From a virus: a DNA stretch of 43,472 nt. The position numbers and the translations under genes were made by a program. Shown here in pieces: positions 1-43,472 of this stretch. The DNA is taken from UHGV virus genome UHGV-0252305, one strand, 5' to 3'. Each line of letters starts with the position of its first letter. Positions within the stretch are counted from its first letter, which is position 1. Below the pieces are notes generated by a model. It was not told the DNA's origin, did not search any database, and was given only the letters and a program-made list of their open reading frames with translations.

Positions 1-992
1 AAGGTAAAGATTATGTACATGTCATCGATATGGGCGAAATACTCGCTACGCATGGTGATAAAAAAATTCCAGCTCTAATCCGCAGGATGCGCGAAACCGC
101 AGGGGATGAACCTATTGGCATGGTTGCCTTCGACACCCTTAACCAGACGCTGGCCCTGACGATTGATAAGTTCGACGAGAACAGTTCATCAACAGCAATC
201 GGCATGGGTAAAGTTATCGCCATTCTGAAAGAAGTACGCGATGCAACTAAAGCCGCAGTAGGCGTTGTCCACCATACGCCGAAGGGTGGAAAGAAAGCAC
301 GCGGCAGTGGGGCGCTGTATGCGGGTGTTGACGTGGAACTGACAATCGAACGTGCAACCGACCGTCAGATAAACGTATATCACTCGAAATTCAAGCACGG
401 GCCTCAGCAGAAGACGGTTGGCATGGTGCTGGAGTCGGTACAGTTCCGTGAAGCGCCGCCGCCTAAAGAATACCGAGCGGTTGAGTTCCTGGGTAGCACA
501 GAGGAATACGGCACAATCGTAAACCTGGACCTGCCTGAACCACACAAGGCGCTTGTGTTGATGCCGTGGGGTTTCGAGCCGTTCAAAACTGACGAGGAGA
601 AAGAGCGGGAAGAAGGGTTGACGAAAGAAGGTAAAGAAAATGTACGTAAAACCGTAGAGAACGCCGTCAACAGTTCGGAGGCCACGATACTCGCGGCGTT
701 TGAACTGGCGGAAGGAACCTACAACGGCAACGAAGGCATCACAGTCGCCGCGGCGAATAAGCTCGCACAGTCAGACCCCAACGCAAAGGCGTTTAACTCC
801 AAAGAAGCCATAGAACGCGGGAAGATTAAGAAAATGGTTGAGGCTGGGTATCTTGTTCCGGGTACTGACGAAAACAATCAGATAATCCCAGGCCGTTACA
901 GACTGAACACCAAGATAACAGATAACAAGATTCCGAAGACAATATACGAACCGAATGAAATGCTGACAGTGACCGAGGAGGATTTGGAATGA
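1..992 (+). CDS. Primase-helicase, C-terminal part (RecA-like NTPase); 5'-truncated at window start, first full codon at position 3
   Basis: Frame is open from position 3 with no stop; motif VVHHTPKGGKKARGSGAL resembles the RecA/DnaB-type helicase H4 region; in frame with the ORF running off the window 3' end. Confidence 0.65.
   Translation, partial: GKDYVHVIDMGEILATHGDKKIPALIRRMRETAGDEPIGMVAFDTLNQTLALTIDKFDENSSSTAIGMGKVIAILKEVRDATKAAVGVVHHTPKGGKKARGSGALYAGVDVELTIERATDRQINVYHSKFKHGPQQKTVGMVLESVQFREAPPPKEYRAVEFLGSTEEYGTIVNLDLPEPHKALVLMPWGFEPFKTDEEKEREEGLTKEGKENVRKTVENAVNSSEATILAAFELAEGTYNGNEGITVAAANKLAQSDPNAKAFNSKEAIERGKIKKMVEAGYLVPGTDENNQIIPGRYRLNTKITDNKIPKTIYEPNEMLTVTEEDLE
975..992 (+). repeat. 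18-nt sequence identical to 3945..3962 (gene 3' end plus SD plus overlapping ATG)
   Basis: gaggaggatttggaatga at both loci; encodes C-terminal EEDLE and initiates a small ORF. Confidence 0.8.
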
Positions 993-1144
993 ATATTTAC
1001 GATTTTATAGATAACCCGTTTAAAGCAGTGAAGGCAGGATACCGCCCGTCATACCTGACATGTGTTTCCGCTGTAAGCAACAACTGGTGGACTTTTTGTG
1101 TGTGTATGCAGCGGGGATTTTTGCGGAGTTTAAAGACATTTTAG
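989..1144 (+). CDS. Hypothetical small protein (51 aa), translationally coupled
   Basis: ATG at 989 overlaps upstream stop (ATGA); strong SD GAGGAGGA upstream; codon-by-codon translation checked; not in ORF track (<60 aa). Confidence 0.35.
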   Translation: MNIYDFIDNPFKAVKAGYRPSYLTCVSAVSNNWWTFCVCMQRGFLRSLKTF

Positions 1145-1146
1145 AC

Positions 1147-1305
1147 ATGACGCTGGCAGAGATTATAAAGTGCCTTTTCAAATTAATTATATCGATAACT
1201 ATTGTTATAAGTTTTCCTGTAAGTGCGTGGTTTCTCGCCTGGATTCAGTACCTGAACGTGCAACACACTATTAAGAATTTGGAAGAACTCGATAAGTTGC
1301 TATAA
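1147..1305 (+). CDS. Hypothetical small hydrophobic protein (C-terminal part of track ORF 1060..1305)
   Basis: Hydrophobic stretch LFKLIISITIVISFPVSAWFLAWI; start uncertain, weak RBS. Confidence 0.25.
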   Translation: MTLAEIIKCLFKLIISITIVISFPVSAWFLAWIQYLNVQHTIKNLEELDKLL

Positions 1306-1311
1306 AAAGAA

Positions 1312-1328
1312 AGGGGCTTTAAGCCCCT
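1312..1328 (-). terminator. Intrinsic terminator after XRE gene
   Basis: 7-bp GC-rich stem aggggct/agcccct with T-run on - strand. Confidence 0.5.
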
Positions 1329-1534
1329 TCACCTAACGCCAGCCACTTGGCGTCTACTTCCAGAACTTCCGCCAGTTTGAACAGCGTTGCCGGGCGGACG
1401 TCCTGAGTTACTCCAAGTGCCAGTTGGTTAATCGCGCCCTGGGAAACGCCGGTCAGGGCCGCCAAACGGCGCTGGGAGATGCCGAGTTCTTTACGGCGTT
1501 GTTCTACACGGGTGCCTAGTTCAGATGGTTGCAT
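1319..1534 (-). CDS. XRE-family helix-turn-helix transcriptional regulator (Cro/CI-like)
   Basis: 71 aa; HTH signature ISQRRLAALTGVSQGAINQLALG; SD AAGGAG upstream of ATG; divergent from the + strand early operon. Confidence 0.8.
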   Translation of the reverse strand: MQPSELGTRVEQRRKELGISQRRLAALTGVSQGAINQLALGVTQDVRPATLFKLAEVLEVDAKWLALGEGA

Positions 1535-1554
1535 GTCAGTTACTCCTTAGTCAG

Positions 1555-1583
1555 TTGATATGTGAATAGTACCATATTAATTA
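1555..1583 (+). promoter_or_regulatory. Promoter-like site TTGATA-17-TAATTA (tandem with 1599..1627)
   Basis: Shares tgtgAATAGt word with next site; imperfect AATAG-N4-ATATT. Confidence 0.3.
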
Positions 1584-1598
1584 TTTTAGAAAAGCCCA

Positions 1599-1627
1599 TT
1601 GACATGTGAATAGTTCGCTATTATAGT
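1599..1627 (+). promoter_or_regulatory. Sigma70-like early promoter TTGACA-17-TATAGT with AATAG-N4-CTATT inverted repeat
   Basis: Near-consensus -35 and -10 at 17-nt spacing; inverted repeat at 1609..1622; 29 nt upstream of gene 1656. Confidence 0.6.
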
Positions 1628-1655
1628 TAGCCCATACCAAACGAGAGGGGCAGAT

Positions 1656-1883
1656 ATGAACACAATCACTGGGGCCATAGCTAAAGGTTTTCGAGCAATT
1701 TTCGGCGCTCCGCAAGAAGTGTGCACAAAACATAAATTTGTACTTTCTTGCGTAGTAGGGGATGAGTTTGATGGGTTCGATAAACTTGTTGTCTGTGACC
1801 ATTGCGGGCAAGAAGCTATTCAACACTCAAACGGTAAATTTGAACTAATAGACGATAGCCTTACTGAAGGCGACGGTGAGTAA
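1656..1883 (+). CDS. Hypothetical early protein with four Cys (possible zinc ribbon)
   Basis: First gene downstream of early promoter; Cys pattern C-x8-C ... C-x2-C; RBS GAGAGGGG. Confidence 0.55.
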   Translation: MNTITGAIAKGFRAIFGAPQEVCTKHKFVLSCVVGDEFDGFDKLVVCDHCGQEAIQHSNGKFELIDDSLTEGDGE

Positions 1884-1907
1884 CTTACACAAACAGGAGA
1901 GAAACAA

Positions 1908-2408
1908 ATGTTAGAGAAATTCTTAGTATTGCTGGAACGTTTCGTAGTTGCACATGAACTGATTGCCGCGAACAGTGCGAAACAAGTTGTTCAGGTTGCC
2001 GCGCCGCTGGAAGTAGAGACTGTATCGTACACCAAAGAAGCGGTAGCTGAGTGCGCTGAAGAAGCAACAAAAGAAATCCCGGTAGAAGGTGAAGACATCG
2101 TTGACACTAAACCGGCAGAAGAAGAGAAGCCAAAACGCAAGCCGCGTAAAGCTAAAGTAGAGGAAACGACGCCAGAGCCGGAAGAAGAGAAAGAAGAAGT
2201 AGACTATAAGTCTCTGCGCGACCAGATTCAGGCTATCGACGATGCAATTAACGAAGGTCCGAGCGATGCCGCGTGCGATGATTCTGATGAACTGCTGGAA
2301 GAGTTCACAGGTAAGAAAATGAAGATTGCAGCGATTAAAGACGAAGACCTGGCTGAATACCTGGAACGCTTGACAGCAATCAAGAACAAGTATTTCGAAG
2401 AAGAATAA
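1908..2408 (+). CDS. Highly acidic early protein (Glu/Asp-rich), hypothetical
   Basis: 166 aa with long E/D-rich tracts (EEEKEEVDYK, DDSDELLEEF); RBS AGGAGAGA. Confidence 0.6.
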   Translation: MLEKFLVLLERFVVAHELIAANSAKQVVQVAAPLEVETVSYTKEAVAECAEEATKEIPVEGEDIVDTKPAEEEKPKRKPRKAKVEETTPEPEEEKEEVDYKSLRDQIQAIDDAINEGPSDAACDDSDELLEEFTGKKMKIAAIKDEDLAEYLERLTAIKNKYFEEE

Positions 2409-2415
2409 CTATCTC

Positions 2416-2434
2416 GCGGCCTTCGGGCCGCTTT
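2416..2434 (+). terminator. Weak intrinsic terminator or attenuator
   Basis: Stem gcggcc/ggccgc, loop ttcg, followed by only TTT. Confidence 0.4.
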
Positions 2435-2451
2435 AACTGAGGGTCGGAATT

Positions 2452-2724
2452 ATGATTTACCAACTCTACCGAGCCGTCGACAGGCGGGATAACACAGAGG
2501 CGCTATGGCTATTGCGTGCTCCGTCCGGTGCGCACCAGATGGAAGAGATGGCGTACTTAGGAAAAGTACCACGGCCTAAAGATACAGGCCGTCACGTGTC
2601 ACAGATTAAGCGCACAACTTTCGCCAAGCCTGACTTTTATGTCTTCGAGTCGATGTATGGGTGGGCCATGCACTGCGACCATAAGACACGACATTTAATT
2701 GACCAGTGGGAGAACAGGGTATGA
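2452..2724 (+). CDS. Hypothetical protein
   Basis: 90-aa ORF, stop overlaps next start (ATGA). Confidence 0.5.
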   Translation: MIYQLYRAVDRRDNTEALWLLRAPSGAHQMEEMAYLGKVPRPKDTGRHVSQIKRTTFAKPDFYVFESMYGWAMHCDHKTRHLIDQWENRV

Positions 2725-3962
2725 TTCTAAAAGAACGCGGTGGCAATAATGATGTGCACGCCTTATTGTCGCCGTCAGGTGCTAAGAAGTGGCTGACGTG
2801 CAGTGCATCACTGGCCTGTGAAAAAGATATTCCTAACACGTCAGGTAAAGCTGCCGTTACGGGGACCGCCATGCACACCATAGCTGAGGTCCATCTCAAC
2901 ACCTATATACGCGGCACTGCGTTGCCGTTGGAGCGTGAAGTCGGCGCTTACGTACTGGATGAAGGCAAAGGTCAGATTAAGGCGCTAATCAGCCCGATGA
3001 AAGGCGCGGTACTGATTACGGCGGACATGATTGAGCAGGTGCGCAAGTACACCGACTACTGCAAAGCGATTATAGACGTAGCGACTTACGCCAAGCTGGA
3101 AATGCGTGTCAATCTTACTGAGGTATTGCATCCGGGGTATGAAGGCGTTGAGACGTTCGGAACCGCTGACCTCGTTGCTGTCCAGGAACTGGCAAACACC
3201 GACGAGCACATGCTCATTATCGGCGACCTGAAAACCGGGCGGCATCGCGTCGAAGCGAAAGAAAACAAGCAGCTTATGCTTTACGCTCTCGGTGTTTATC
3301 GTCGACTCAAGAGACGTTATAACATAACAACCGTTCGTCTGGTCATCTTCCAGCCTTACGCTGGGGGCGCGACAGAGTGGGACATCTCGGTTGAAGGACT
3401 GGAACTGTTCGCTAAGTTCGCACAGAAACGCGCGCTGTTAGCGCTTGATGCGTATTTCCGTGGCAAGAAGAACCTGAAAGCGTCGGACTTCAAGCCATCG
3501 GTAGATGGTTGTCAGTGGTGCCGGTTCTCTGAACAATGCGCTGCGCGTACAAAGACGGTTAATTCTGTACTGGCGGAAGAACTGGAAGACGACTTTGTGC
3601 TGGAACTGACGCCGGAGCAACTCGTAGCTGAGTATGAGAAGTTGCCGCTGTTGCGCCAGCACATCGACAAGGTTGAGAAAGCTATGGCGGCCGCGTTGCA
3701 TTCAGGTAAGAAAGTTCCTGGTTACAAGTTGGTTGAAGGCCGCCCGGGTAATCGTGCATGGAAAGACGCGGAGAAAGTAACAGAACTCTACGGCGACAAG
3801 CTGACTAAAGAAGTGCTCATGTCACCTACCGAAGCTGTTAAAGTCATACCGGAAGAAGAACTGAAAGACTTCATTACCCGTAAGCCAGGCGCACCATGTG
3901 TCGCAACGGCAGACGACAAACGTCCTGAGTGGAATCAGGTAACAGAGGAGGATTTGGAATGA
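2721..3962 (+). CDS. Cas4-like / RecB-family PD-(D/E)XK nuclease with Fe-S cysteine cluster
   Basis: D...IGDLKTG...QLMLYAL nuclease motifs; N-terminal Cys (LTCSA) plus C-terminal CQWCRFSEQC (C-x2-C-x5-C); ATG at 2721 has SD GGGAG, track GTG start at 2706 does not. Confidence 0.75.
   Translation: MILKERGGNNDVHALLSPSGAKKWLTCSASLACEKDIPNTSGKAAVTGTAMHTIAEVHLNTYIRGTALPLEREVGAYVLDEGKGQIKALISPMKGAVLITADMIEQVRKYTDYCKAIIDVATYAKLEMRVNLTEVLHPGYEGVETFGTADLVAVQELANTDEHMLIIGDLKTGRHRVEAKENKQLMLYALGVYRRLKRRYNITTVRLVIFQPYAGGATEWDISVEGLELFAKFAQKRALLALDAYFRGKKNLKASDFKPSVDGCQWCRFSEQCAARTKTVNSVLAEELEDDFVLELTPEQLVAEYEKLPLLRQHIDKVEKAMAAALHSGKKVPGYKLVEGRPGNRAWKDAEKVTELYGDKLTKEVLMSPTEAVKVIPEEELKDFITRKPGAPCVATADDKRPEWNQVTEEDLE
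3945..3962 (+). repeat. Second copy of the 18-nt gene-junction repeat
   Basis: Identical to 975..992. Confidence 0.8.
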
Positions 3963-4162
3963 TTCAAGTAAATGAAATGCCCACAGATAAAGATTTTGTG
4001 ATGATATGGCGCTGGGGCGGTTATATCCATTCGGAATCGTTTACGTTCCTGAACGGCACGATGGTGCGATACAACCATGTGGAGGATGAATTCGAACCCG
4101 TTGATATGAATGATTTCGAGAACATAGTCCGTATTGCGAAATTTTATTTGACACCTGAATAG
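3959..4162 (+). CDS. Hypothetical protein (67 aa)
   Basis: ATG overlaps upstream stop (ATGA); same SD-containing 18-nt sequence as at 975..992. Confidence 0.5.
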   Translation: MIQVNEMPTDKDFVMIWRWGGYIHSESFTFLNGTMVRYNHVEDEFEPVDMNDFENIVRIAKFYLTPE

Positions 4163-4176
4163 TTAGCTATTATAGT
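4148..4176 (+). promoter_or_regulatory. Promoter-like site TTGACA-17-TATAGT with AATAG-N4-CTATT
   Basis: Inverted repeat at 4158..4171; upstream of SSB-like gene. Confidence 0.55.
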
Positions 4177-4235
4177 TCTAATCACTGACCGGGCAGCTTC
4201 CCGGAGTAAACGAAACTTAAAAGCGAGAAATTAAG

Positions 4236-4862
4236 ATGGGTATTAAACTGAATCTGCGTAAAGTAAACACTGCTTGGGTTAACGTATTTGAACGTGAAAA
4301 AGACCGTGAAAACGATGATGGCTCAATCACTAAAGGCCAGTACAGCGCGACTATCATCCTGCCGTCTGACCATGCTCAAATCGATGCACTCTACGACACC
4401 GTTTACGCTGTAGTTGAAGAAGCGTTAGGCGCAGCCGCTGCCGAGAAATGGATGAAGTCCAACTACGGTGAAGGTAAGCACATGGATAAATGCGCGATTA
4501 AAGACATTGCCGAGCGCGACAATCCGTTTGAAGACTTCCCGGAAGGCTTCTACTTCAAAGCGAAGGCACAGAAACAGCCGCTGATTGTAACCTCTAAAAA
4601 AGGTGAGACTCAGGTAGAGCAGGACTTCAACGTAGACGGCGAACAGATTGAAGGTGAACAGGTTTACAGCGGATGCTTAGCTAACGTAAGCGTTGAAATC
4701 TGGTTCAGCCAGAAATACAAAGTCCTCGGCGTTAACCTGCTGGCGATTAAATACGTTGGCGAAGGCAAAGCGTTCGGCGGTTCTAAAGTCGCCGCGAGCG
4801 TCAATGACCTGGAAGATGACGAAGAAGATGAAGCACCGCGCCGTGAACGTCGTCGCCGCTAA
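4236..4862 (+). CDS. Putative single-stranded DNA-binding protein (DUF2815-like) with acidic C-terminal region
   Basis: N-terminal pattern resembles phage DUF2815/SSB family as I recall it; acidic tail DLEDDEEDEA; sits between nuclease and polymerase genes. Confidence 0.45.
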   Translation: MGIKLNLRKVNTAWVNVFEREKDRENDDGSITKGQYSATIILPSDHAQIDALYDTVYAVVEEALGAAAAEKWMKSNYGEGKHMDKCAIKDIAERDNPFEDFPEGFYFKAKAQKQPLIVTSKKGETQVEQDFNVDGEQIEGEQVYSGCLANVSVEIWFSQKYKVLGVNLLAIKYVGEGKAFGGSKVAASVNDLEDDEEDEAPRRERRRR

Positions 4863-4883
4863 TATCTGAATCAATTTTAACTA

Positions 4884-4905
4884 AGGCCCTTCATTGGGCC
4901 TTTTT
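4884..4905 (+). terminator. Intrinsic terminator after SSB-like gene
   Basis: Stem aggccc/gggcct followed by TTTTT. Confidence 0.65.
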
Positions 4906-4922
4906 ACTAGGGGTCAAAAATA

Positions 4923-7094
4923 ATGAGTTACCTGTTCTTAGACTTTGAAACATTCTCAGAAGCCGATTTGAAGAAAGTCGGTTCTTACGCTTACGCCGAA
5001 CACCCGTCAACCGAAGTGCTTATCTGTACATATGCTTTTGACGACGAACCTGTGCGGGTATGGGATTGCACCGACGGCAGCGACATGCCGGGGGATTTAC
5101 ACCGCGCACTGCGCCGCCTTGTTAAGCCCAACAGCCGCATCAAGATGGTGTGGCACAACGGTGGACTTTTCGATCGCCTAATCATGAAACACTGCTGGGA
5201 CTTTGATATTCCGGTAAGTAACACCATTGATACTATGATTTGGGCGTTCCGTCACGCGCTGCCGGGTTCTCTTGATGCGCTGTGCGAAGTGCTGGGCGTG
5301 TCTACAGACAACGCGAAAGATAAACGCGGCAAGGCTCTGATTAAGCGTTTCTCTAAACCGACGCCGAAGAACTACAAAATCCGCCGCTACACCGCAGAAA
5401 CTCACCCTGACGAGTGGGCGATGTTCATCAGGTACGCCGTGAGCGACATCACTGCGATGCGTGAAGTCTTCCATAAGCTGCCGCGTTGGGGTAACTCCGA
5501 GTTCGAAGACCGTGTACTGGAACTGGACCAGTTGATTAACGACCGCGGATTTAAGGTTGACGTTGCACTGGCAGAAGCCGCGATTGAAGCCGTGGAGAAG
5601 CACAAAGCGCAGCTACAGGAAGAAGCACAGCGCAAATACGGCGGCTCGCTTACTGGTAAAGACTTCCTGCCGATTCTGCGTGAACTTGCACCAGCGCACC
5701 GCATCCACAACGCGCAGAAGTCTACGCTTAACGACCTGTTGGCGGATGATGATTTACCGGACGACGCACGCACGATTATCGAAATGCGCCTCGGGGCCGC
5801 GTCCACAGCGTCAACGAAATATAACCCGCTGCTGTTAGGGCGCTCGTCGGACGACCGCCGTCGTGGTTGCATTCAGTACGGCGGAGCCAAGCGTACATTA
5901 CGATTTGCCGGTAAAGGCTTTCAGCCGCAGAACCTCGCGCGTGGGTACTATCACGATGATGAACTGGATAAAGGTATTTCAGCGTTACTTAAGGGCCGCG
6001 CCCATCGCCGTTTCGATGTGGCCAAGCTAACGGCATCGACCGTTCGTAGCTGCATCATACCGGAAGCAGGGCATAAGTTTGTCGTTGCCGATTACTCTAA
6101 CGTCGAAGGCCGCGGTCTTGCGTGGCTGGCGGGTGAAGACGATTTAATCGAAGTATTTGTAAACGGGGTTGATGTGTATAAGAAACTCGCATCAACGGTG
6201 TTCAATGTTGCATATGAAGCCGTAACAAAGGACCAAAGACAAATAGCCAAAGCAATGGTTCTGGGACTCGGCTACGCGGGGGGCGTCGGTGCTTTCGTCA
6301 CGTTTGCTAAAAACTTAGGTCTTGATTTGAATGACATGACTAACACTTTAGACGGTACATTCCCGGACCATATTTGGGCCGCTACCGCACGCGGATACGA
6401 ATGGGCGCGTATTCAGGAAGCCAAGCGACCACCACGTCCTGGTGAAAAAGATGACCGACCCTCATATATCCTTGATAAGAAAGTTTGGCGCACCTGTGAC
6501 GCTTTAAAGCGCATGTACCGGGAAGCTAATCCTGCAATAGTCCAATTCTGGCGCGATATTGAAGACGCGGCTATGGCGGCTATCCGCAACCCAGGTAAAG
6601 AGTTCACCGCAGGGCCGCGTGGCGTTAAGTTTTCGCGCAACGTGGAGACAGATAACAACGGCAACAAAGTCGCCGGTTGGTGGCTGCGCATGACGTTGCC
6701 GTCTGGTCGCGTTATGTCTTATCCAGGCGTCGGGTTGAGCGTGTCGAAAGAAACAGACGAAGATGGAAAAGTTTCTACTAACGTGCGCATCAAGTATCAG
6801 GGTGAAAATCAGTTAACCAGGCAGTGGGGCTTCCAGTACACCTACTCCGGTAAACTGGTGGAAAACTGCACTCAGGCACTGTGCCGTGACTTGCTGGCTA
6901 ATGCGCTACTTAACGTTGAAGCAAACGGCTACCCGATTGTACTTCACGTACACGATGAGATTATCTGCGAGACACCGGATTCGCCTGAATACAATGTCGC
7001 AGAGCTTGAGCGATTGATGTGCGAATTACCAGAATGGGCGGAGGGGTTCCCTCTTGTAGCGGAAGGTCAGGAGTTAAAACGCTATGCTAAGTAA
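4923..7094 (+). CDS. Family A (Pol I-like) DNA polymerase with 3'-5' exonuclease domain
   Basis: 723 aa; exonuclease motif LDFETFS (D-x-E); polymerase motifs RQIAKAMVLGLGYAGG and VHDEIICE. Confidence 0.9.
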   Translation: MSYLFLDFETFSEADLKKVGSYAYAEHPSTEVLICTYAFDDEPVRVWDCTDGSDMPGDLHRALRRLVKPNSRIKMVWHNGGLFDRLIMKHCWDFDIPVSNTIDTMIWAFRHALPGSLDALCEVLGVSTDNAKDKRGKALIKRFSKPTPKNYKIRRYTAETHPDEWAMFIRYAVSDITAMREVFHKLPRWGNSEFEDRVLELDQLINDRGFKVDVALAEAAIEAVEKHKAQLQEEAQRKYGGSLTGKDFLPILRELAPAHRIHNAQKSTLNDLLADDDLPDDARTIIEMRLGAASTASTKYNPLLLGRSSDDRRRGCIQYGGAKRTLRFAGKGFQPQNLARGYYHDDELDKGISALLKGRAHRRFDVAKLTASTVRSCIIPEAGHKFVVADYSNVEGRGLAWLAGEDDLIEVFVNGVDVYKKLASTVFNVAYEAVTKDQRQIAKAMVLGLGYAGGVGAFVTFAKNLGLDLNDMTNTLDGTFPDHIWAATARGYEWARIQEAKRPPRPGEKDDRPSYILDKKVWRTCDALKRMYREANPAIVQFWRDIEDAAMAAIRNPGKEFTAGPRGVKFSRNVETDNNGNKVAGWWLRMTLPSGRVMSYPGVGLSVSKETDEDGKVSTNVRIKYQGENQLTRQWGFQYTYSGKLVENCTQALCRDLLANALLNVEANGYPIVLHVHDEIICETPDSPEYNVAELERLMCELPEWAEGFPLVAEGQELKRYAK

Positions 7095-7215
7095 ACTGAT
7101 TATCGCGGTACTGGCGGGATTCGCCGCAGTTGTCTACTGTCACGAGGGCCAATACGGCATGATGGTCGCCGTATTGGGTATGTTAGTAGCAATTTATCTG
7201 TGGGTGCCGGAATGA
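7084..7215 (+). CDS. Small membrane peptide (43 aa)
   Basis: ATG overlaps polymerase stop; hydrophobic; first link of an ATGA-coupled chain; translation verified. Confidence 0.35.
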   Translation: MLSKLIIAVLAGFAAVVYCHEGQYGMMVAVLGMLVAIYLWVPE

Positions 7216-7301
7216 AAATTTACTGGTTATACGAAGAAGACTGCCGAATCTGTCCGCGCTGCGGGATTGAGCATACGAAACGTGAGGGGTGTGTATTATG
7301 A
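7212..7301 (+). CDS. Small Cys-rich peptide (29 aa, CxxC)
   Basis: ATGA overlaps at both ends; DCRICPRCG; translation verified. Confidence 0.3.
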   Translation: MKIYWLYEEDCRICPRCGIEHTKREGCVL

Positions 7302-7450
7302 CAATGTTTGTATTTAGGACCATAGTAACCATGCTCGCACTGTTACTCGGCGCGGGAATAGCTGCGATGTTCTGTTACGGCCTGTTCTTTAAGTTTGTTG
7401 GCGTTGCCGTTCTCGGAGGAGCGTTTATAACCTGGGTTCTGCGCTCATGA
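7298..7450 (+). CDS. Small membrane protein (50 aa)
   Basis: ATGA overlaps at both ends; two hydrophobic segments; translation verified. Confidence 0.35.
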   Translation: MTMFVFRTIVTMLALLLGAGIAAMFCYGLFFKFVGVAVLGGAFITWVLRS

Positions 7451-7731
7451 CCCCGGAAGGCAAGATTCAGAAATACGCAAAAGAGCAATTCGAGGCCATT
7501 GGCGGCCTCGTTCGTAAACTTTCGTACGAGGGGCGCTCCGGCGCCCCTGACCTGCTGGTAATTCTCCCCGGCGGCATCGTCTGGTTCGTCGAGGTTAAGA
7601 AAGACGAAAACACGAAGCCAGACCCGCACCAGTTACGTGAGCATGAGCGGATGCGTAAACGCGGTGCAAATGTTTTTGTCGTTGGTTCGTTTAAACAGGT
7701 TGACGACCTAATAGCAAACTATTATAGTTAG
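7447..7731 (+). CDS. VRR-NUC domain nuclease
   Basis: 94 aa; PD-(D/E)XK-type motif PDLLVIL...VEVKK typical of VRR-NUC. Confidence 0.75.
   Translation: MTPEGKIQKYAKEQFEAIGGLVRKLSYEGRSGAPDLLVILPGGIVWFVEVKKDENTKPDPHQLREHERMRKRGANVFVVGSFKQVDDLIANYYS
7700..7728 (+). promoter_or_regulatory. Promoter-like site TTGACG-17-TATAGT with AATAG-N4-CTATT
   Basis: Inverted repeat at 7710..7723; lies in 3' end of VRR-NUC gene, upstream of 7762. Confidence 0.55.
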
Positions 7732-7761
7732 CCATACACCAACAATATAAGGAATTGAGAA

Positions 7762-7953
7762 ATGAAACACGAATACGACCGCAAACCAGCACGTGACATC
7801 GTACCGGGCGACATGATTTTCAACGTTAAGACCCGTCGGCCTGTTGCCGTGGATACGGTGTTCGTCGAGTCGAACGGTAAACTGGTTATCGAAGACGTAA
7901 CCGGCAACGTTACCGCGTTCGGGCGTAAAGAGCTTGTTCTGGTGGCAAAATGA
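7762..7953 (+). CDS. Hypothetical protein
   Basis: 63-aa ORF downstream of promoter-like site at 7700..7728; stop overlaps helicase start. Confidence 0.5.
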   Translation: MKHEYDRKPARDIVPGDMIFNVKTRRPVAVDTVFVESNGKLVIEDVTGNVTAFGRKELVLVAK

Positions 7954-9374
7954 GTAAGTTTCAAAGACGCGAGTACCAGAAGCTCATGACCTCGTTCATG
8001 CTGCAACACCCGCGCTGTAATATCTGGTGCGGAATGGGGGGAGGTAAAACCTCCTCCACTATGTGGGTGCTCAACCGCCTGTTCCGCAACGGGCAGCTTA
8101 CGGAAGAGGACCGCGTGTTAATCCTTGCCCCGTTACGTGTTGCGTCCGGTACGTGGCCCGCTGAACAAGAGAAATGGCAATTCCCTTGTCTGCGTGTCGT
8201 AGATGCAACTGGTTCGGAGAAGCGCCGCATCGCAGCGCTGGAGTCAGATGCTAACGTGGTGTGCACTAACTACGAAGTTATCGAGTGGCTAATTGACTAC
8301 TACGGCAAAGACGACTGGCCTTTTACGGTTATCGTTGCCGATGAAAGCACGAAGCTTAAATCGTTCCGCAGCCGTTCGGGTGGTAGCAAGCGGGCAAAGG
8401 CGCTCAGCAAGGTTGCGTTCGGAAAGGTTAAGCGTTTCATTAACCTGACTGGCACGCCGTCGCCAAACGGCCTCAAGGACTTGTGGGGGCAGAACTGGTT
8501 TATCGACGCTGGCGAGCGACTCGGTTCATCGTACACAGCATTCACCGACCGCTGGTTTAACTCGGTACAGAAAGGTAAATCGGCTATGGCCCGCGAGTAT
8601 CATGCACGACCGGGTGCGGATAATGAGATTCATCAGAAGATGAAAGACATCAGCCTGACCATAGACCCTGCCGAGTGGTTTGGTTGTGAAGCGCCTGTTA
8701 TCGTACCGGTGGAAATAGACCTGCCGAAGAAAGCGCGTCAGGCGTACATAGATATGGAGGAGAAGTTATTCGCAGAACTGGAGAGCGGGGAAGTTGAAGC
8801 GGCTAACGCTGCGGCGAAGACCTCAAAGTGCTTGCAGATTGCATCTGGTGCCGTGTATGTGTCAGGGCCGGATGGCGAAGCGACCAAAGACTGGGAGAAA
8901 GTGCACGACACGAAACTGGATGCGCTCGAGTCGATTGTTGAGGAGTTGCAGGGTGCGCCGTTGCTGGTAGCCTATCAGTTTAAACACGAACTGGAGCGTA
9001 TCCTTAAGCGATTCCCACAGGCACAGGCGTTCGCCAAAGGCGCTAGGGGGAACAAGCAGATGGAAGCGTGGAACCGTGGGGAAATCGAGATTTTATGCGT
9101 GCATCCTGCGTCAGCCGGGCATGGTTTGAATTTACAGGACGGGGGTCATCATCTGGCGTTCATCTCGCAAGGCTGGAACCTTGAGCACTATTTGCAGGTT
9201 GTTGAGCGCATAGGCCCAGTCCGCCAGAAACAGGCGGGTCACGAGCGCCCGGTGTTCCTTTATCACATCGTTGCTAAAGACACTCTGGACGAGGTTGTCG
9301 CCGCTCGTACAGACGAGAAAAGGTCTGTACAGGATGAACTACTTAATTATATGAAACGTAGGAGTAAGAAATGA
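7950..9374 (+). CDS. SNF2/DEAD-like superfamily 2 helicase
   Basis: Walker A GMGGGKTS; DExx box VIVADEST; C-terminal helicase domain; 474 aa. Confidence 0.85.
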   Translation: MSKFQRREYQKLMTSFMLQHPRCNIWCGMGGGKTSSTMWVLNRLFRNGQLTEEDRVLILAPLRVASGTWPAEQEKWQFPCLRVVDATGSEKRRIAALESDANVVCTNYEVIEWLIDYYGKDDWPFTVIVADESTKLKSFRSRSGGSKRAKALSKVAFGKVKRFINLTGTPSPNGLKDLWGQNWFIDAGERLGSSYTAFTDRWFNSVQKGKSAMAREYHARPGADNEIHQKMKDISLTIDPAEWFGCEAPVIVPVEIDLPKKARQAYIDMEEKLFAELESGEVEAANAAAKTSKCLQIASGAVYVSGPDGEATKDWEKVHDTKLDALESIVEELQGAPLLVAYQFKHELERILKRFPQAQAFAKGARGNKQMEAWNRGEIEILCVHPASAGHGLNLQDGGHHLAFISQGWNLEHYLQVVERIGPVRQKQAGHERPVFLYHIVAKDTLDEVVAARTDEKRSVQDELLNYMKRRSKK

Positions 9375-12387: not shown

Positions 12388-12399
12388 ATAGAGTCCTCT

Positions 12400-30266: not shown

Positions 30267-30289
30267 AAAGCCCCATAGCGGGGCTTTTT
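30267..30289. terminator. Bidirectional terminator after lipoprotein gene
   Basis: 8-bp stem aaagcccc/ggggcttt with T-runs on both strands. Confidence 0.7.
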
Positions 30290-30290
30290 A

Positions 30291-35353: not shown

Positions 35354-35895
35354 TCCTCTACCTCACCCATGTTCGTTGTTACGATTTTACCTACAGGCTC
35401 CGCAACACTGAAAACAATCTCAGTCGGTGCTGGTTCTTCGGTGGATGCAACCGGTTTCTCTTTGCTGAGGCCCAGTTTAGCCGCGGCAAACGTAGCCGAG
35501 ATGCCCGCAGCCCCTGTCTCAGTGAAGTATGCCTCTTCCAGCGCCTGTGCCGTTTCATAGGCTTCGGCAAATGCGGGAATCTCGCGCAACCACAGCTTAA
35601 TAATCGGGATAGTGACGCCGATGTGTAAGGCAAAGCGGGCCAGTGACGGCGGTTTATCCTGAATCAGTGGGCGTTCGTCACCCTTAGACGTAGGCACAAG
35701 TTCCCATGACGTGCGGTCGAAGAACTCGATTAAAGCGTCGCAATAGTCCGGGTCCCACAGCGCGGCGGAATTACGGGACGATTGATAAAGGCTCTGTTTA
35801 CCGCGCGGTCGTTTACGGCGACGGTTTGCGCTAACAGCTTCTTCATGTGCAGCTTGCACCACCTCTGGCGATGGCTGCTTAAGTTTCAGCTTCAT
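35350..35895 (-). CDS. terS: Terminase small subunit (putative)
   Basis: Overlaps terL start (ATGA-type); ATG at 35895 with SD AAGGGG; position. Confidence 0.55.
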   Translation of the reverse strand: MKLKLKQPSPEVVQAAHEEAVSANRRRKRPRGKQSLYQSSRNSAALWDPDYCDALIEFFDRTSWELVPTSKGDERPLIQDKPPSLARFALHIGVTIPIIKLWLREIPAFAEAYETAQALEEAYFTETGAAGISATFAAAKLGLSKEKPVASTEEPAPTEIVFSVAEPVGKIVTTNMGEVEE

Positions 35896-35987
35896 AGAAT
35901 CCCCTTGCATATGCGTCTGACCATCAGAGCGCACCAGACGCGCCCTACGCGTCTAAATGGATTATATAAGGGGATTGGGCGTGATGT

Positions 35988-37875: not shown

Positions 37876-38361
37876 TCAACCTTTCACCGCGCGCCCAATG
37901 GCCTCAGCCTCTTGCCACGGTTTACCGTCAAATAATGCCAGTCTCCCGGCTGTACGGCGACGCAGGCCAAGTAACGGTTTGCCGTTCTGGTTGATGAACA
38001 GCGCCAGCTTAGCCCGCAGCGTTGCAATATCACCAGAACGCAGTGCCTTACCCGTGCCGGTAGTAGCAGCAATCACACCAGCACCTGCGTTGTATACCAG
38101 GTCGCACACTGCATCGAACTGTGCCTGTGTCAGTGAATGGTGTGCCGTCGCGTCAACCGCAGCTACGGCTTTAGCCATATCGCGATTAAGTAACAGGAGG
38201 CCTTGTCCTGGAGTGATGGTCTGCCCCGCCTTAACATGCGGGCCATAGCTTCCATACCCAATAGTCAGGTACTTCTCATTCGGTGTAGCGCGATACGCGG
38301 TTCCGCGGAATCCCTCGAACGCGGCGGTGAATTTGATGCCATTGTTGCTAATGTTTCTCAT
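37876..38361 (-). CDS. Endolysin, GH24 lysozyme (P22 gp19 / T4 lysozyme-like)
   Basis: ISNNGIKF...FEGFRGTAY...TIGYG and QAQFDAVCDLVYNAG...ALF patterns match P22 gp19-type lysozyme as recalled; follows holin genes. Confidence 0.85.
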   Translation of the reverse strand: MRNISNNGIKFTAAFEGFRGTAYRATPNEKYLTIGYGSYGPHVKAGQTITPGQGLLLLNRDMAKAVAAVDATAHHSLTQAQFDAVCDLVYNAGAGVIAATTGTGKALRSGDIATLRAKLALFINQNGKPLLGLRRRTAGRLALFDGKPWQEAEAIGRAVKG

Positions 38362-38424
38362 AAAGCACCTTCCCGTAATTTATGGTTCGCGAAAACCTCG
38401 CGCAGCTTATCTGCGGTAAGTCCA

Positions 38425-38697
38425 TTATCTGAAATATTTCGAGACACGCTTATGCCCTCCGTACGACAGCCACGCCTGACGAATCTGACGCAGCGCAACT
38501 AATGTGATTAATGTCTCAGGCAGCGTCGGTGACATGCTGCCCTGTAACAGGTGGATACATCCGGCGGCGCAGACAATAGCAGTCAGAATATAAAGCACAC
38601 GCCCGAACAGCCCGTCGTCCACGTGTTCGTTATACACGTTGAACAGGGACGAAGCGCCCATTGAAAGCATTACGACAAACCAGAATAGCTCAGTCAT
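38425..38697 (-). CDS. Second lysis membrane protein (holin or antiholin-like, 2 TM)
   Basis: ATG at 38697 overlaps holin stop; two hydrophobic segments; track N-terminal extension rejected. Confidence 0.4.
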   Translation of the reverse strand: MTELFWFVVMLSMGASSLFNVYNEHVDDGLFGRVLYILTAIVCAAGCIHLLQGSMSPTLPETLITLVALRQIRQAWLSYGGHKRVSKYFR

Positions 38698-38998
38698 GTG
38701 GTCCTCCTGGGCGGGCAATATCGCCGCCCGATACGATGCCAGAAAGGCGGGAATAGATAGGCATCCAGAGAATGGCAATGATGAATCCGAGGCCCGCTAT
38801 TTCGCGTTCACCTGCGATACCGAACCATTGAGCGGCGAGAGGCGCACCGAATACGGCGCACGCAAAGCCAGTGGCGAGAAAACAGAGAGCATCGACAGGG
38901 CCGGTAATAGTGGCTTTGTGTTGCCTTAGTCCGATTACCCCTCCGGCTAGTGCGGCAGCGAGAAGCCACCCCGTCACAGTTTCAGTAAATTTATCCAA
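38690..38998 (-). CDS. Holin-like membrane protein (about 3 TM segments)
   Basis: 102 aa with three hydrophobic segments and charged C-terminus, directly upstream of endolysin. Confidence 0.5.
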   Translation of the reverse strand: MDKFTETVTGWLLAAALAGGVIGLRQHKATITGPVDALCFLATGFACAVFGAPLAAQWFGIAGEREIAGLGFIIAILWMPIYSRLSGIVSGGDIARPGGPHD

Positions 38999-41414: not shown

Positions 41415-41567
41415 CAATAGACTTTGACCCTTCCGAAAGCGTCAGCGGAACTACACTCAAGTGCCTAATGGCACGCGTTGCGTTCCCTGCCGCTCCGCGG
41501 TCGCTTGCGATATCTCACAAGCTCAGTGAAGCTTAGCATATTTTCAAGTAAAAGTCAATACCAGTAG
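41415..41567 (+). repeat. ~150-bp intergenic direct repeat, copy 2
   Basis: Shares blocks ccttccgaa.gcgtcagcg.aactacactca, ccgcggtcgcttg, tcacaagctcag, agcttagca, aaaagtcaa with copy 1. Confidence 0.7.
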
Positions 41568-41605
41568 CATCTTTTGTATTTTAGTAACTTTGCGTGGTGT
41601 TTTGG

Positions 41606-41634
41606 TTGCTTTTACAAAGTTACCGCCTTATACT
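41606..41634 (+). promoter_or_regulatory. Promoter-like site TTGCTT-17-TATACT
   Basis: Between repeat copy 2 and AlpA-like gene. Confidence 0.35.
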
Positions 41635-41663
41635 TCGATACATATTACACAGGAGAGCGCGAG

Positions 41664-41834
41664 ATGACTATCAATGAAGTTGCAGAATTAATCGGCGTCA
41701 CCCGCCAGACGATCAATAACTGGATTAAGAGTGGAAAGTTTCCTGATTGCAGCGTTAAAGTAATGGGGCGCCGTTTACCAGGAACATTTGACCGTAATAA
41801 AGTTGAAGCGTGGATTAAGGAGAACGTGAAATGA
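41664..41834 (+). CDS. AlpA/excisionase-like small HTH DNA-binding protein
   Basis: MTINEVAELIGVTRQTINNWIKSGKFP; ATG at 41664 with SD AGGAGA. Confidence 0.6.
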   Translation: MTINEVAELIGVTRQTINNWIKSGKFPDCSVKVMGRRLPGTFDRNKVEAWIKENVK

Positions 41835-42121
41835 AAGGTGTAATTTTCCACGATAAAGAAAATGACAGTGCTTATATGGTCTATTTAGTGCAAGGTGAGT
41901 ATGCGTTGTGTTTTAACGTTTCCTGTAAACTGGACTCATATTTGCCGTTTTGCGTTACAGAAGAATTGCAGTTGATTAGTCTAAGAAGACTCAGCACAAT
42001 GTCGGCTTCCATCGATGTCTCCGACCACCTATCCTACGTTTATCAGTATTTCGGGGATGAGATTGTCGTAGATTATTACCGTAAGTACGCGCATTTGATG
42101 GAATGTCTGGCTAATAGATAA
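41831..42121 (+). CDS. Hypothetical protein
   Basis: 96 aa; ATGA overlap with upstream gene. Confidence 0.5.
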   Translation: MKGVIFHDKENDSAYMVYLVQGEYALCFNVSCKLDSYLPFCVTEELQLISLRRLSTMSASIDVSDHLSYVYQYFGDEIVVDYYRKYAHLMECLANR

Positions 42122-42178
42122 AAGAAGGCCCCAGCGTTAGAGCGCCGAGGCCAAATTACTTGCTGAAGGAAATACAAC

Positions 42179-43472
42179 ATGCCCGATGTAATTTTATCCT
42201 ACTCGTGGTCACGCCGCAACGCGCGGGCGGGAAAAAAGGATATAAATGTCAGAACCGCACACACGGCAACACTGGACGACCTGAAAGAGTTAATCCAGCC
42301 GCTCGATGCCGTTCGCGACGGGATTAACCCTAAGACCGCGCCCGGTTATATCACCGCCGCGTGCGACTCAACGCACAGCACCGTAAAAGACCCGGAAACT
42401 GGAGACTTTAAGCAAGCGCGTAAAGGTTTTTTCTACCGCTGCGATGCGTCTGTAAGCAAATCGTCGCTGGCCTATCTGGATTTCGACAGCACAACACCGG
42501 AAGAGTATCAGGAAGCGGTGCGCCTGGTTAAGCGCAGCCGCAGGGCCATGTGCCTCTATACCACGGCATCACATACTGATGAGTCACCGCGCTTTCGCGT
42601 CGTAATGCCACTGGCCCGTCCGGTGGAGGGTGGTGACATCATCCGTGTTCGTCATGGGTTGCTGGAGCACTTCTTCAAAGGCATGGGTGCGGACCGCAGC
42701 GGGTTCACTCTGTCGCAGCCGATGTACCTGCCGCCGGTCGGCGCTACCGTTATCTGGTCGCGCCGCAACGACCTGATCGACCCGAACGAGTTACTGGAAG
42801 GCATCCCAGCCGTTGACGTTAGCAGCGCATCGGATTACCAGATACCGGAAGAACTGCGCACCGCGTTTACAGACGCGTTTGAAGCACTGGCGTTTGAGTA
42901 CGGCGGCGTCATGACGCCGCGCGGCCTTAAGATGCCAGCCACACCGGAACATGCCGAAAACTACAGCGACCCGACACCGCGCCCGGACGACTTCCTGCTG
43001 TGCTTCCCGCGCGAGGGGTATGAAGCGCCAAACGTAACCATGATTCACGACACAGACATTACGGCGACAGAAGGCCTGTCACCGAAAGAGGTGTGGAAGT
43101 ACGCGTGCGATGCGACCGGGCTGCCGTTCAGTGAAGTCGCAGAGGCCATCGGTTGGGGTGCGCGTGAATCTGTCTCATGCAGCCTCGACGACCTGGAAGA
43201 CGACGAGGACTCAGAGGAGGACGAGTTACCAGAACCGGTAAAGGCTGATTTCGTCGTTGAGGGGTACATGCCGTCGGATTGTATCTGGGATATTGTCGGG
43301 GAATCCGGCACGTACAAATCATTCTATACGCTGGGGATGATGTACCTGAGCGCCGCCGGGTACCGGTTTGCGGGGGCTGACACCCAACGTTGCCACCATT
43401 TCTATATTGACGGCGAGGGTGGTGCAGCTACACGAACACGTATTGATGCACTCGCGGCTAAATATGGCGAGG
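42179..43472 (+). CDS. Primase-helicase, N-terminal part (AEP/PrimPol-like), 3'-truncated at window end
   Basis: LDFDS (DxD) motif and TTASHTDE segment suggest primase-polymerase fold; frame open to last base; SD AAGGAAA. Confidence 0.65.
   Translation, partial: MPDVILSYSWSRRNARAGKKDINVRTAHTATLDDLKELIQPLDAVRDGINPKTAPGYITAACDSTHSTVKDPETGDFKQARKGFFYRCDASVSKSSLAYLDFDSTTPEEYQEAVRLVKRSRRAMCLYTTASHTDESPRFRVVMPLARPVEGGDIIRVRHGLLEHFFKGMGADRSGFTLSQPMYLPPVGATVIWSRRNDLIDPNELLEGIPAVDVSSASDYQIPEELRTAFTDAFEALAFEYGGVMTPRGLKMPATPEHAENYSDPTPRPDDFLLCFPREGYEAPNVTMIHDTDITATEGLSPKEVWKYACDATGLPFSEVAEAIGWGARESVSCSLDDLEDDEDSEEDELPEPVKADFVVEGYMPSDCIWDIVGESGTYKSFYTLGMMYLSAAGYRFAGADTQRCHHFYIDGEGGAATRTRIDALAAKYGE

What the first reader, a model, noticed from the sequence alone, without database searches (positions are those of the whole stretch)
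1..43472. Window ends fall inside one gene: the 3'-terminal ORF continues in frame into the 5'-terminal ORF, implying a complete circular or circularly permuted genome
The ORF starting at 42179 is open to the last base; joining base 43472 (g) to bases 1-2 (aa) gives codon GAA and continues without a stop into the frame of ORF 30..992. The junction reads ...AAKYGE-E-GKDYVHVIDMGEIL.... The N-terminal part has primase-polymerase-like motifs and the C-terminal part a RecA-like helicase motif, as expected for a single ~760-aa primase-helicase. The 43.5-kb size and complete set of phage modules fit a whole genome.
Basis: partly seen in the sequence, partly recalled or inferred. Interest (0 to 1): 0.4.

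Follow-up and report, generated by a model that had tools for sequence, protein, structure and literature searches.

The report
Complete circular-map Kagunavirus phage genome
The window is one exact unit length of a K1G-like (Kagunavirus) E. coli phage genome from a circular assembly that was opened, arbitrarily, inside its primase-helicase gene; this is an ordinary linearisation artefact.

Summary
The ORF from ATG 42179 is open to base 43472. With bases 1-2 it forms codon GAA and runs on in frame to the stop at 990-992, giving one 761-aa protein.

- **One protein.** The joined protein matches the phage family 'replicative helicase-primase' end to end. One ATPase-domain match crosses the junction. 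It aligns without a gap at the junction to the single K1G protein.
- **Public record.** This exact protein is on record as one gene. Two independent public contigs cross the window's junction at 100% and 99.97% identity, with break points elsewhere.
- **Circular signature.** The ends of one contig overlap by 30 bp. Contig lengths of 43613, 43533 and 43508 bp equal the window's unit length plus 141, 55 and 30 bp.
- **Identity.** The genome is collinear with phage K1G, has all the expected modules, no integrase family among the called genes, and no match for its last 3.5 kb in complete E. coli genomes.

Corrections: the junction cuts through the ATPase domain, between Walker A and Walker B, not between the two domains. 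'Circular' describes the assembly, not the virion DNA. Headful packaging (permuted, terminally redundant DNA) is likely but unproven, and the literature disagrees. Interest is low.

The parts
42179..43472 (+). 5' part of the replicative primase-helicase gene: codons 1-431 plus the first base of codon 432
   Evidence: PHROG 3228 full-length match
1..992 (+). 3' part of the same gene: last two bases of codon 432, codons 433-761, stop at 990-992
42437..42808 (+). AEP-like primase(-polymerase) catalytic core, residues about 87-210, with conserved R87, D101, D103, H132, R140
   Evidence: Conserved columns; AlphaFold2 core pLDDT 82-96; Foldseek top hit is the S-2L PrimPol AEP domain 6zp9_A, E 3.5e-4, then RepB' 3h20
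43232..43472 (+). First part of the AAA_25 (RecA-fold, P-loop) helicase domain, residues 352-431, including Walker A GESGTYKS at 43298-43321
   Evidence: Pfam AAA_25 E 5.7e-20, one stretch 352-528. Walker A read from the sequence
1..290 (+). Second part of the same AAA_25 domain, residues 432-528, including the Walker B-like GMVAFD at 117-134 (motif assignment inferred)
   Evidence: sequence
35350..35934 (-). Small terminase subunit (longest ORF; the gene called in public contigs is 181 aa)
   Evidence: PHROG 3064 E 1.3e-72; 99% identity to SHAK7858 TerS over its first 150 residues
34103..35353 (-). Large terminase subunit, K1G-type allele
   Evidence: Pfam Terminase_6N E 1.5e-21 and Terminase_6C E 4.1e-11; 98.8% identity to K1G TerL
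32621..34090 (-). Portal protein
   Evidence: Pfam DUF4055; 99% identity to the SHAK7858 portal
22780..31795 (-). Head and neck module, mostly on the - strand: head morphogenesis, decoration, spanins, scaffold, major head protein, adaptor, neck, tail terminator, tail tube
   Evidence: Annotation transfer by tblastn from SHAK7858; Pfam families of called genes
10051..20175 (-). Tail module: assembly chaperones, tape measure, minor tail proteins, J-like tail protein, tailspike with Peptidase_S74 chaperone domain
1060..9886 (+). Replication and recombination module, mostly on the + strand, downstream of the primase-helicase: PD-(D/E)XK exonuclease, ssDNA-binding protein, family A DNA polymerase, Holliday junction resolvase, SNF2 helicase, Toprim-like protein
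37876..38998 (-). Lysis genes: endolysin (Phage_lysozyme) and two holins

Best explanation
The window is exactly one unit length (43,472 bp) of the genome of an uncultured lytic siphovirus of the genus Kagunavirus (subfamily Guernseyvirinae, K1G-like E. coli phages). It comes from an assembly that closed into a circle and was opened at an arbitrary point. That point lies at codon 432 of the 761-aa replicative primase-helicase gene, inside its P-loop ATPase domain.

The split gene encodes an N-terminal AEP-like primase core fused to an AAA_25 (RecA-fold, P-loop) helicase domain, followed by a C-terminal extension.

Inferred, not shown: the virion DNA is linear, packaged by the headful mechanism from concatemers. 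It would therefore be terminally redundant and circularly permuted, which is why assemblies close into a circle with no fixed ends.
For: **Shown**
- In-frame join of 761 aa.
- One full-length family match, PHROG 3228, residues 3-761, E 5.6e-286.
- One Pfam AAA_25 stretch, 352-528, spans residue 432.
- 100% coverage in a single piece at 95-97.5% identity to the annotated helicase-primase of Kagunavirus records, gap-free at the junction.
- The exact 761-aa sequence is on record as one gene product.
- ENA contig k141_166152 (43,613 bp) starts at window 38016 and runs 100% identical through 43472 into 1-10992.
- Logan contig DRR747909_3647 (43,508 bp) crosses the junction at 99.97% identity. Its two ends overlap by 30 bp at window 8741-8770.
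- Length arithmetic: 43,613 - 141 = 43,472. 43,508 - 30 = 43,478, which is the window plus a 6-bp repeat unit.
- The window is collinear with K1G around the whole circle, including across K1G's own record origin.
- All expected modules are present.
- There is no tRNA, no integrase family among the called genes and no match for 40001-43472 in 5,426 complete E. coli genomes.

**For headful packaging**
- TerL hits Terminase_6N and Terminase_6C, as P22 gp2 does. It does not hit the pair that HK97 gp2 hits.
- PhageTerm predicts pac packaging for the Guernseyvirinae-like phage Shashou (PMC6776780).
- K1G and K1H TerL cluster near phages with headful packaging (PMC5582158).
- PhageTerm found no obvious termini for the Kagunavirus fBC-Eco01 (PMC9825357).
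Against: - No reads were available, so neither the physical ends nor the permutation is shown.
- One paper places K1G-like TerL in the '3' cos HK97' group of a TerL tree (PMC11641727).
- Pairwise TerL comparison with P22, Sf6, SPP1 and HK97 is uninformative, with all E > 0.01.
- A Pfam family does not fix the packaging mode.
- The terminal overlaps of the 43,613-bp and 43,533-bp contigs were inferred from their lengths, not read directly.
- Loci fetched from the identical public contigs cover all of the window except about 19887-24108.
Confidence: 0.9

Rival explanations
1. The genome is complete and the window is one unit, but the virion DNA has fixed ends (cohesive ends or short direct terminal repeats). 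It would then not be circularly permuted. The circle would arise only from reads of concatemers or ligated ends.
For: PMC11641727 reports that TerL of K1G-like phages clusters with 3' cos HK97-type terminases. PhageTerm failed to call any mechanism for fBC-Eco01 (PMC9825357) and for the 43,053-bp phage vB-EcoS_179-3 (PMC13507304).
Against: The window's TerL hits Terminase_6N/6C like P22 gp2, and not PF03354/PF20441 as HK97 gp2 does. PhageTerm predicts pac packaging for a Guernseyvirinae-like relative (PMC6776780). A TerL tree places K1G and K1H near phages with headful packaging (PMC5582158). Four assemblies of this genome break at four different places: 43472/1, 38016, 38701 and 8741-8770. 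That does not suggest a coverage discontinuity at a fixed end, but it is weak evidence.
Confidence: 0.15
2. The two ends belong to unrelated genes of a linear fragment and are in frame only by chance.
For: Frame compatibility alone has a chance probability of about 1 in 6 for two ends that lie inside genes (reasoning).
Against: There is a single full-length family match and a single domain match across the junction. There is a single-piece alignment to one annotated protein in hundreds of phage records. The exact joined protein is on record as one gene. Identical contigs span the join.
Confidence: 0.005
3. The contig is nearly complete, but a piece is missing, or a few bases are duplicated, exactly at the junction inside the gene.
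For: K1G's protein is 6 residues shorter, and that indel lies only 15 residues downstream of the junction.
Against: The indel is at residues 447-452, not at 432. Both the 761-aa and the 755-aa forms exist in public data. Contig k141_166152 is 100% identical over 16,449 bp centred on the junction. The Logan circle has the same unit length apart from one hexamer repeat unit elsewhere. The window has no terminal repeat.
Confidence: 0.005
4. The sequence is a resident element of a bacterial cell, either an integrated prophage or a true circular plasmid-prophage, rather than a lytic phage genome.
For: It has a 71-aa Cro/CI-type HTH protein at 1319-1534(-) and a 56-aa HTH_17 (excisionase-like) protein ending at 41834.
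Against: No integrase or partition family appears among the called genes. Window 40001-43472 has no match in 5,426 complete E. coli genomes. The relatives are described as lytic (PMC11641727, PMC13507304). A prophage excerpt would end at attachment sites, not inside one gene.
Confidence: 0.02

Closest known systems
Escherichia phage K1G (NC_027993; Kagunavirus K1G, Guernseyvirinae) and other Kagunavirus isolates (22664BS2, SHAK7858, phiEc3/4, BEU35, fEg-Eco19)
   Same: The gene order is the same around the whole circle, and a single HSP crosses the window junction. DNA identity is 87-96% over most of the genome. The primase-helicase is 96% identical and TerL 98.8% identical to K1G's. K1G and SHAK7858 are also deposited as circular records.
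   Different: No record in the phage collection is near-identical. The best cover 69-88% of each half of the window at 93-96% identity. By the usual 95% criterion that suggests a separate species (my inference). The tailspike is not K1G's; it is 97% identical to those of fEg-Eco19 and EF2-1. The window has two extra opposite-strand ORFs, at 16368-17018 and 31938-32591.
Public metagenome contigs ENA ERZ27317564 k141_166152, Logan DRR747909_3647 and ENA ERZ28663420 scaffold_107
   Same: They carry the same genome at 100% or 99.96-99.97% identity over every stretch fetched. The unit length is the same.
   Different: The break points differ: window 38016, 8741-8770 and 38701. The Logan contig has a 30-bp terminal overlap, read directly. 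For the other two, overlaps of 141 and 55 bp are inferred from their lengths. Two of the contigs carry one more (TQ) hexamer unit in the major head gene.
AEP primase-helicase fusion proteins of phages and plasmids (structural neighbours: cyanophage S-2L PrimPol, RSF1010 RepB')
   Same: The predicted fold of residues 90-210 matches the S-2L PrimPol AEP domain, E 3.5e-4, probability 1.0. DxD, H and R residues are conserved. It is fused to a P-loop helicase domain. Distant relatives carry the same N-domain fused to AAA_25, DUF5906, VapE, DnaB_C and PriCT modules.
   Different: No Pfam primase model matches. There is no sequence-level PDB match. The TM-score is only 0.48 on the target. No activity has been tested.
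Headful (pac) packaging phages such as P22 and SPP1
   Same: TerL has the same Pfam family pair as P22 gp2. Assemblies close into a circle with no fixed ends.
   Different: Pairwise TerL similarity to P22, Sf6 and SPP1 is not detectable. No pac site or read-start data were available. One published tree disagrees (PMC11641727).

Membership tests
Closed circular assembly (one complete unit of a genome) | The two ends join without loss or gain when compared with homologues | tested here: met
   The alignment to the K1G protein is gap-free at residue 432. A single HSP to the K1G genome crosses the junction. One AAA_25 domain match spans it.
Closed circular assembly (one complete unit of a genome) | Independent assemblies of the same genome carry the junction as internal, continuous sequence | tested here: met
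   k141_166152 is 100% identical over 16,449 bp across 43472|1. DRR747909_3647 is 99.97% identical over 21,251 bp across it.
Closed circular assembly (one complete unit of a genome) | Terminal k-mer overlap in an assembler's contig, and the same unit length | tested here: met
   The Logan contig's ends overlap by 30 bp at window 8741-8770, and 43,508 - 30 = 43,472 + 6. 43,613 - 141 = 43,472 is from lengths only; that overlap was not read.
Genus Kagunavirus (Guernseyvirinae) | High nucleotide similarity over most of the genome to members of the genus | tested here: met
   Identity is 88-96% over 64-88% of each half of the window to many Kagunavirus records. 77% of the window aligns to the type phage K1G.
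Genus Kagunavirus (Guernseyvirinae) | Shared gene order and module arrangement with K1G | tested here: met
   Collinear HSPs run around the whole circle. Annotation transfer was done gene by gene.
Genus Kagunavirus (Guernseyvirinae) | Siphovirus morphology and lytic growth on E. coli | not testable with these tools
   This is a metagenome-derived sequence. The only indirect evidence is the absence of an integrase family and of an E. coli genome match.
Headful (pac) packaging, circularly permuted terminally redundant DNA | Large terminase of a family used by known headful phages | tested here: inconclusive
   TerL hits Terminase_6N/6C as P22 gp2 does, not the HK97 pair. However, a family does not fix the mode, pairwise similarity is nil, and the literature disagrees (PMC5582158 and PMC6776780 against PMC11641727).
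Headful (pac) packaging, circularly permuted terminally redundant DNA | Distributed virion DNA ends with a preferred pac start, and more than one unit length of DNA per head | not testable with these tools
   This needs reads or virion DNA.
AEP (archaeo-eukaryotic-type) primase-polymerase fused to a helicase | AEP catalytic fold in the N-terminal domain | tested here: met
   The AlphaFold2 core, residues 90-210, has pLDDT 82-96. The Foldseek top hit is the S-2L PrimPol AEP domain 6zp9_A, E 3.5e-4, probability 1.0, TM 0.48 on the target, followed by RepB'. The support is moderate.
AEP (archaeo-eukaryotic-type) primase-polymerase fused to a helicase | Conserved acidic DxD motif and histidine motif | tested here: met
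   D101 and D103 are invariant, or conserved in at least 90% of sequences, as are R87 and R140. H132 is conserved in at least 90% in the second set.
AEP (archaeo-eukaryotic-type) primase-polymerase fused to a helicase | Match to a curated primase or Prim-Pol sequence model | tested here: not met
   There is no Pfam or NCBIfam hit in residues 1-350. A profile search of the PDB gave no true hit. Only PHROG families named primase or helicase match residues 87-207.
AEP (archaeo-eukaryotic-type) primase-polymerase fused to a helicase | P-loop NTPase or helicase domain with Walker A and B | tested here: met
   Pfam AAA_25 E 5.7e-20, residues 352-528. GESGTYKS at 374-381 and GMVAFD at 471-476 were read from the sequence.
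AEP (archaeo-eukaryotic-type) primase-polymerase fused to a helicase | Primase and helicase activity | not testable with these tools
   This is biochemistry.

The most novel reading that the evidence does not exclude
Within the genus Kagunavirus, the large terminase together with the C-terminal tail of the small terminase is exchanged as a cassette. The window and K1G carry one allele. SHAK7858 and the Jersey-like phages carry another, only 54-55% identical, between flanks that are 99% identical.

The published disagreement over packaging mode (pac or headful against 3' cos) might then reflect a real difference between alleles. Close relatives would switch packaging behaviour by swapping this cassette. 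The cassette exchange itself is well supported here. A difference in packaging mode is speculation.
Probability: 0.08. Interest if true: 0.35.

Novelty: new member of a known kind. Interest (0 to 1): 0.07.

Why it matters
It matters mainly as quality control.

- **Downstream use.** The window can be treated as a complete, non-redundant phage genome. Annotation should rotate it, for example to start at the terminase genes, so that the primase-helicase is not called as two truncated ORFs.
- **Screening.** A split gene at the contig ends is a cheap completeness signal. On its own it gives only about a five- to six-fold likelihood ratio and needs homology or read support.

Biologically this is another uncultured Kagunavirus, a group of current interest for phage therapy and synthetic biology. 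It adds nothing unexpected.

Tried and rejected
1. **Terminal repeat.** A search for a direct terminal repeat of 10-600 bp in the window found none.
2. **PDB by sequence.** The whole protein gave only a chance hit. A profile of the N-domain gave only spurious repeat and low-complexity hits. A profile of full-length relatives was dominated by their different helicase modules.
3. **Homologue search, N-terminal 340 aa.** The first homologous-protein search returned only 3 proteins. The search of 50%-identity cluster representatives and a profile search were needed.
4. **Pairwise TerL comparison.** Comparison with P22, Sf6, SPP1 and HK97 gave no significant similarity to any. Only the Pfam assignments were usable.
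5. **TerL against the PDB by sequence.** Nothing was found.
6. **Far ends of two contigs.** I tried to fetch the far ends of k141_166152 and scaffold_107 to read their terminal overlaps. The look-ups collapsed them as 'similar places', so those overlaps rest on length arithmetic.
7. **T1 terminase.** The stretch fetched did not contain it.
8. **Prophage reading.** Rejected: window 40001-43472 has no E. coli genome match and the called genes include no integrase family.
9. **tRNA scan.** None found.

Full report
**Observation.**
- An ATG at 42179 follows an in-frame stop at 42164 and opens a frame that is still open at the last base.
- 42179-43472 is 1294 nt, i.e. 431 codons plus one base.
- That last g with bases 1-2 (aa) makes GAA. 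Frame 3 of the window then stays open to the stop at 990-992.
- The joined ORF is 2286 nt and 761 aa.
- At each end only one of the three + strand frames is open.

Taken alone this is weak evidence. Two unrelated genes at the two ends would be on the same strand and in compatible phase about one time in six. A random cut of a densely coding circular genome lands inside a gene most of the time. The likelihood ratio from the frame alone is therefore only about five or six.

**Is the joined product one protein?** Yes, on four counts.
- The 761-aa product matches PHROG 3228, 'replicative helicase-primase', from residue 3 to 761 against profile positions 3-766 of 766, E 5.6e-286.
- Pfam finds one AAA_25 stretch, residues 352-528, E 5.7e-20. 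This single domain match runs straight across junction residue 432.
- tblastn against 50,697 phage records gives 100% coverage in one piece at 95-97.5% identity. The matches are to the gene annotated as helicase-primase in K1G, K1H, K1ind2/3, phiEc3/4, BEU35 and other Kagunavirus records. 385 records cover at least 80% of the query in one place.
- The residue alignment to the K1G protein has no gap at the junction (...AAKYSEEGKDYVHVIDMGE...). The only indel, 6 residues at 447-452, is a natural variant, since both 761-aa and 755-aa forms are on record.

Walker A (GESGTYKS, 374-381) lies before the junction and the Walker B-like GMVAFD (471-476) after it.

**Direct evidence for the circle.** The exact 761-aa sequence is in the public protein collection as a single gene product. 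Three public contigs carry this genome.

| Contig | Length (bp) | Break point in window coordinates | Identity to window |
|---|---|---|---|
| ENA ERZ27317564 k141_166152 | 43,613 | starts at 38016; runs through 43472 into 1-10992 | 100% over 16,449 bp |
| Logan DRR747909_3647 | 43,508 | ends overlap by 30 bp at 8741-8770 | 99.97% over 21,251 bp across the junction |
| ENA ERZ28663420 scaffold_107 | 43,533 | one end at 38701 | 99.96-100% |

- The 30-bp overlap of the Logan contig is what a circular path in a de Bruijn graph leaves (k = 31 would give k-1 = 30; that k value is from my memory of the Logan pipeline).
- Removing the overlap gives 43,478 bp. That is the window's 43,472 plus the single 6-bp repeat unit by which these contigs differ from the window.
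- 43,613 - 141 = 43,472 exactly. 43,533 - 55 = 43,478.
- The overlaps of 141 and 55 bp are inferred from contig names and lengths. I could not fetch those contig ends.

Four linearisations of the same circle thus break at four different places, and the window holds one unit with nothing missing or duplicated. The window itself has no terminal repeat.

**What the genome is.**
- Megablast finds no near-identical record. Many Kagunavirus genomes match at 88-96% identity over 64-88% of each half of the window.
- Against the type phage K1G (43,587 bp, deposited as circular) the HSPs are collinear around the whole circle. They include one HSP across the window junction and continuity across K1G's own record origin.
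- Annotation transfer from SHAK7858 and K1G, plus family scans, place all expected modules:
  - packaging: small and large terminase, portal;
  - head and neck: head morphogenesis, decoration, scaffold, major head protein, adaptor and neck proteins;
  - tail: tail tube, chaperones, tape measure, minor tail proteins, J-like protein, tailspike;
  - lysis: holins, endolysin, spanins;
  - replication: primase-helicase, PD-(D/E)XK exonuclease, ssDNA-binding protein, family A polymerase, resolvase, SNF2 helicase, Toprim-like protein;
  - other: an Mre11-like exonuclease, polynucleotide kinase and dNMP kinase.
- There is no tRNA and no integrase family among the called genes. Window 40001-43472 has no match in 5,426 complete E. 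coli genomes.
- Identity times coverage to the best records is below 95%. By the usual criterion this would be a separate species of a well-known genus (my inference).

**The primase claim.**
- There is no Pfam or NCBIfam hit in residues 1-350.
- There is no PDB hit by sequence or by profile.

Other evidence supports the claim moderately.
- A search of 1.84 billion cluster representatives found 120 relatives of the N-terminal 340 residues.
- In those relatives the same domain is fused to AAA_25, DUF5906, VapE-like, DnaB_C, PriCT_1/2 and DUF3987 modules. These are the usual partners of phage and plasmid primases.
- R87, D101, D103 and R140 are invariant or nearly so, within the pattern LDxD ... 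YTTxSHTxExPRxRV. H132 is conserved in at least 90% of the second set.
- An AlphaFold2 model built on 37 sequences is confident only for residues 90-210 (pLDDT 82-96; whole model 58.8).
- Foldseek against the PDB puts the AEP domain of cyanophage S-2L PrimPol first (6zp9_A, E 3.5e-4, probability 1.0, TM 0.48 on the target). Primase RepB' of RSF1010 comes second.

So 'AEP-like primase core fused to a P-loop helicase' is supported at the fold and motif level.

**Circular, or circularly permuted?** This cannot be settled from sequence.

For headful packaging:
- The large terminase hits Terminase_6N and Terminase_6C, the same pair as P22 gp2. HK97 gp2 hits PF03354 and PF20441 instead.
- PhageTerm predicts pac packaging for the Guernseyvirinae-like phage Shashou (PMC6776780).
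- K1G and K1H terminases fall near phages with headful packaging in one tree (PMC5582158).
- PhageTerm found no obvious termini in the Kagunavirus fBC-Eco01 (PMC9825357).

Against:
- Another paper places K1G-like TerL in the 3' cos HK97 group (PMC11641727).
- Pairwise comparison with reference terminases is uninformative.

I give headful packaging, and hence permuted, terminally redundant virion DNA, about 0.7-0.75. Fixed ends get about 0.15. Either way the window is a complete unit with an arbitrary start.

**Verdict.** The matter is ordinary: a complete Kagunavirus genome from a circular metagenome assembly, opened inside its primase-helicase gene. The practical consequence is to rotate the sequence before gene calling.

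Noticed in passing
window 34103-35934 (-): Terminase cassette mosaicism. TerL is only 54.9% identical to that of SHAK7858 but 98.8% to K1G's. The flanking portal is 99% identical, and the first 150 residues of TerS are 99% identical. TerS diverges only in its C-terminal tail, next to TerL. So TerL and the TerS C-terminus appear to be exchanged together. About 74 records carry the K1G-type allele, while the Jersey-type allele is about 54% identical.
   Followed up: partly
window 27341-27369, inside the major head gene 27027-28100 (-): A perfect hexamer tandem repeat (GGGTCT x 4.8) encodes a (TQ)n run...GLTQTQTQTQTRKF.... It is one unit longer in two other public assemblies of the same genome. 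That is the only difference seen in more than 20 kb.
   Followed up: partly
window 16368-17018 (+): A 216-aa ORF lies on the opposite strand inside the tail module, between the tape measure gene and a 166-aa tail gene. It matches PHROG 953 'HNH endonuclease' (E 8.7e-64) and has a weak AP2 domain. It is probably a homing endonuclease insertion. SHAK7858 has a 465-aa protein at this place instead.
   Followed up: partly
window 31938-32591 (+): A 217-aa ORF lies on the opposite strand in an insertion of about 830 bp between the portal and head-morphogenesis genes. K1G lacks this insertion. The ORF matches PHROG 6095, labelled 'amidase', full length (E 9e-121). It has a sub-threshold KilA-N match.
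   Followed up: partly
window 10051-12387 (-): The tailspike (778 aa) has a C-terminal Peptidase_S74 chaperone domain. It is 97% identical to the tailspikes of fEg-Eco19, EF2-1 and KMB36. K1G shows no DNA match here, and SHAK7858 matches only the first 233 residues (64%). This looks like a host-range module swap, and probably not a K1 capsule phage.
   Followed up: partly
window 9371-9886 (+): A 171-aa protein matches PHROG 849 'DNA primase' and has a sub-threshold Toprim_2 match. The genome thus carries a small Toprim-type protein as well as the AEP-type primase-helicase.
   Followed up: no
window 1319-1534 (-) and 41664-41834 (+): Two small DNA-binding proteins sit in a phage with no integrase family among its called genes. 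One is a 71-aa Cro/CI-type HTH_3 protein on the opposite strand in the replication module. The other is a 56-aa HTH_17 (excisionase-like) protein just upstream of the primase-helicase operon.
   Followed up: no
L002 (OR594183.1, SHAK7858): The GenBank record of this Kagunavirus-like siphovirus genome carries the taxonomy line Autographiviridae; Studiervirinae; Kayfunavirus and the name vB_EcoM. Both look mislabelled, given its synteny with K1G.
   Followed up: no
P0016 (Escherichia phage CR01 'replicative DNA helicase', 456 aa): One public annotation of this gene is only 456 aa long, although it is 96% identical over the first 340 residues. It may be another record in which the gene is truncated or split.
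   Followed up: no
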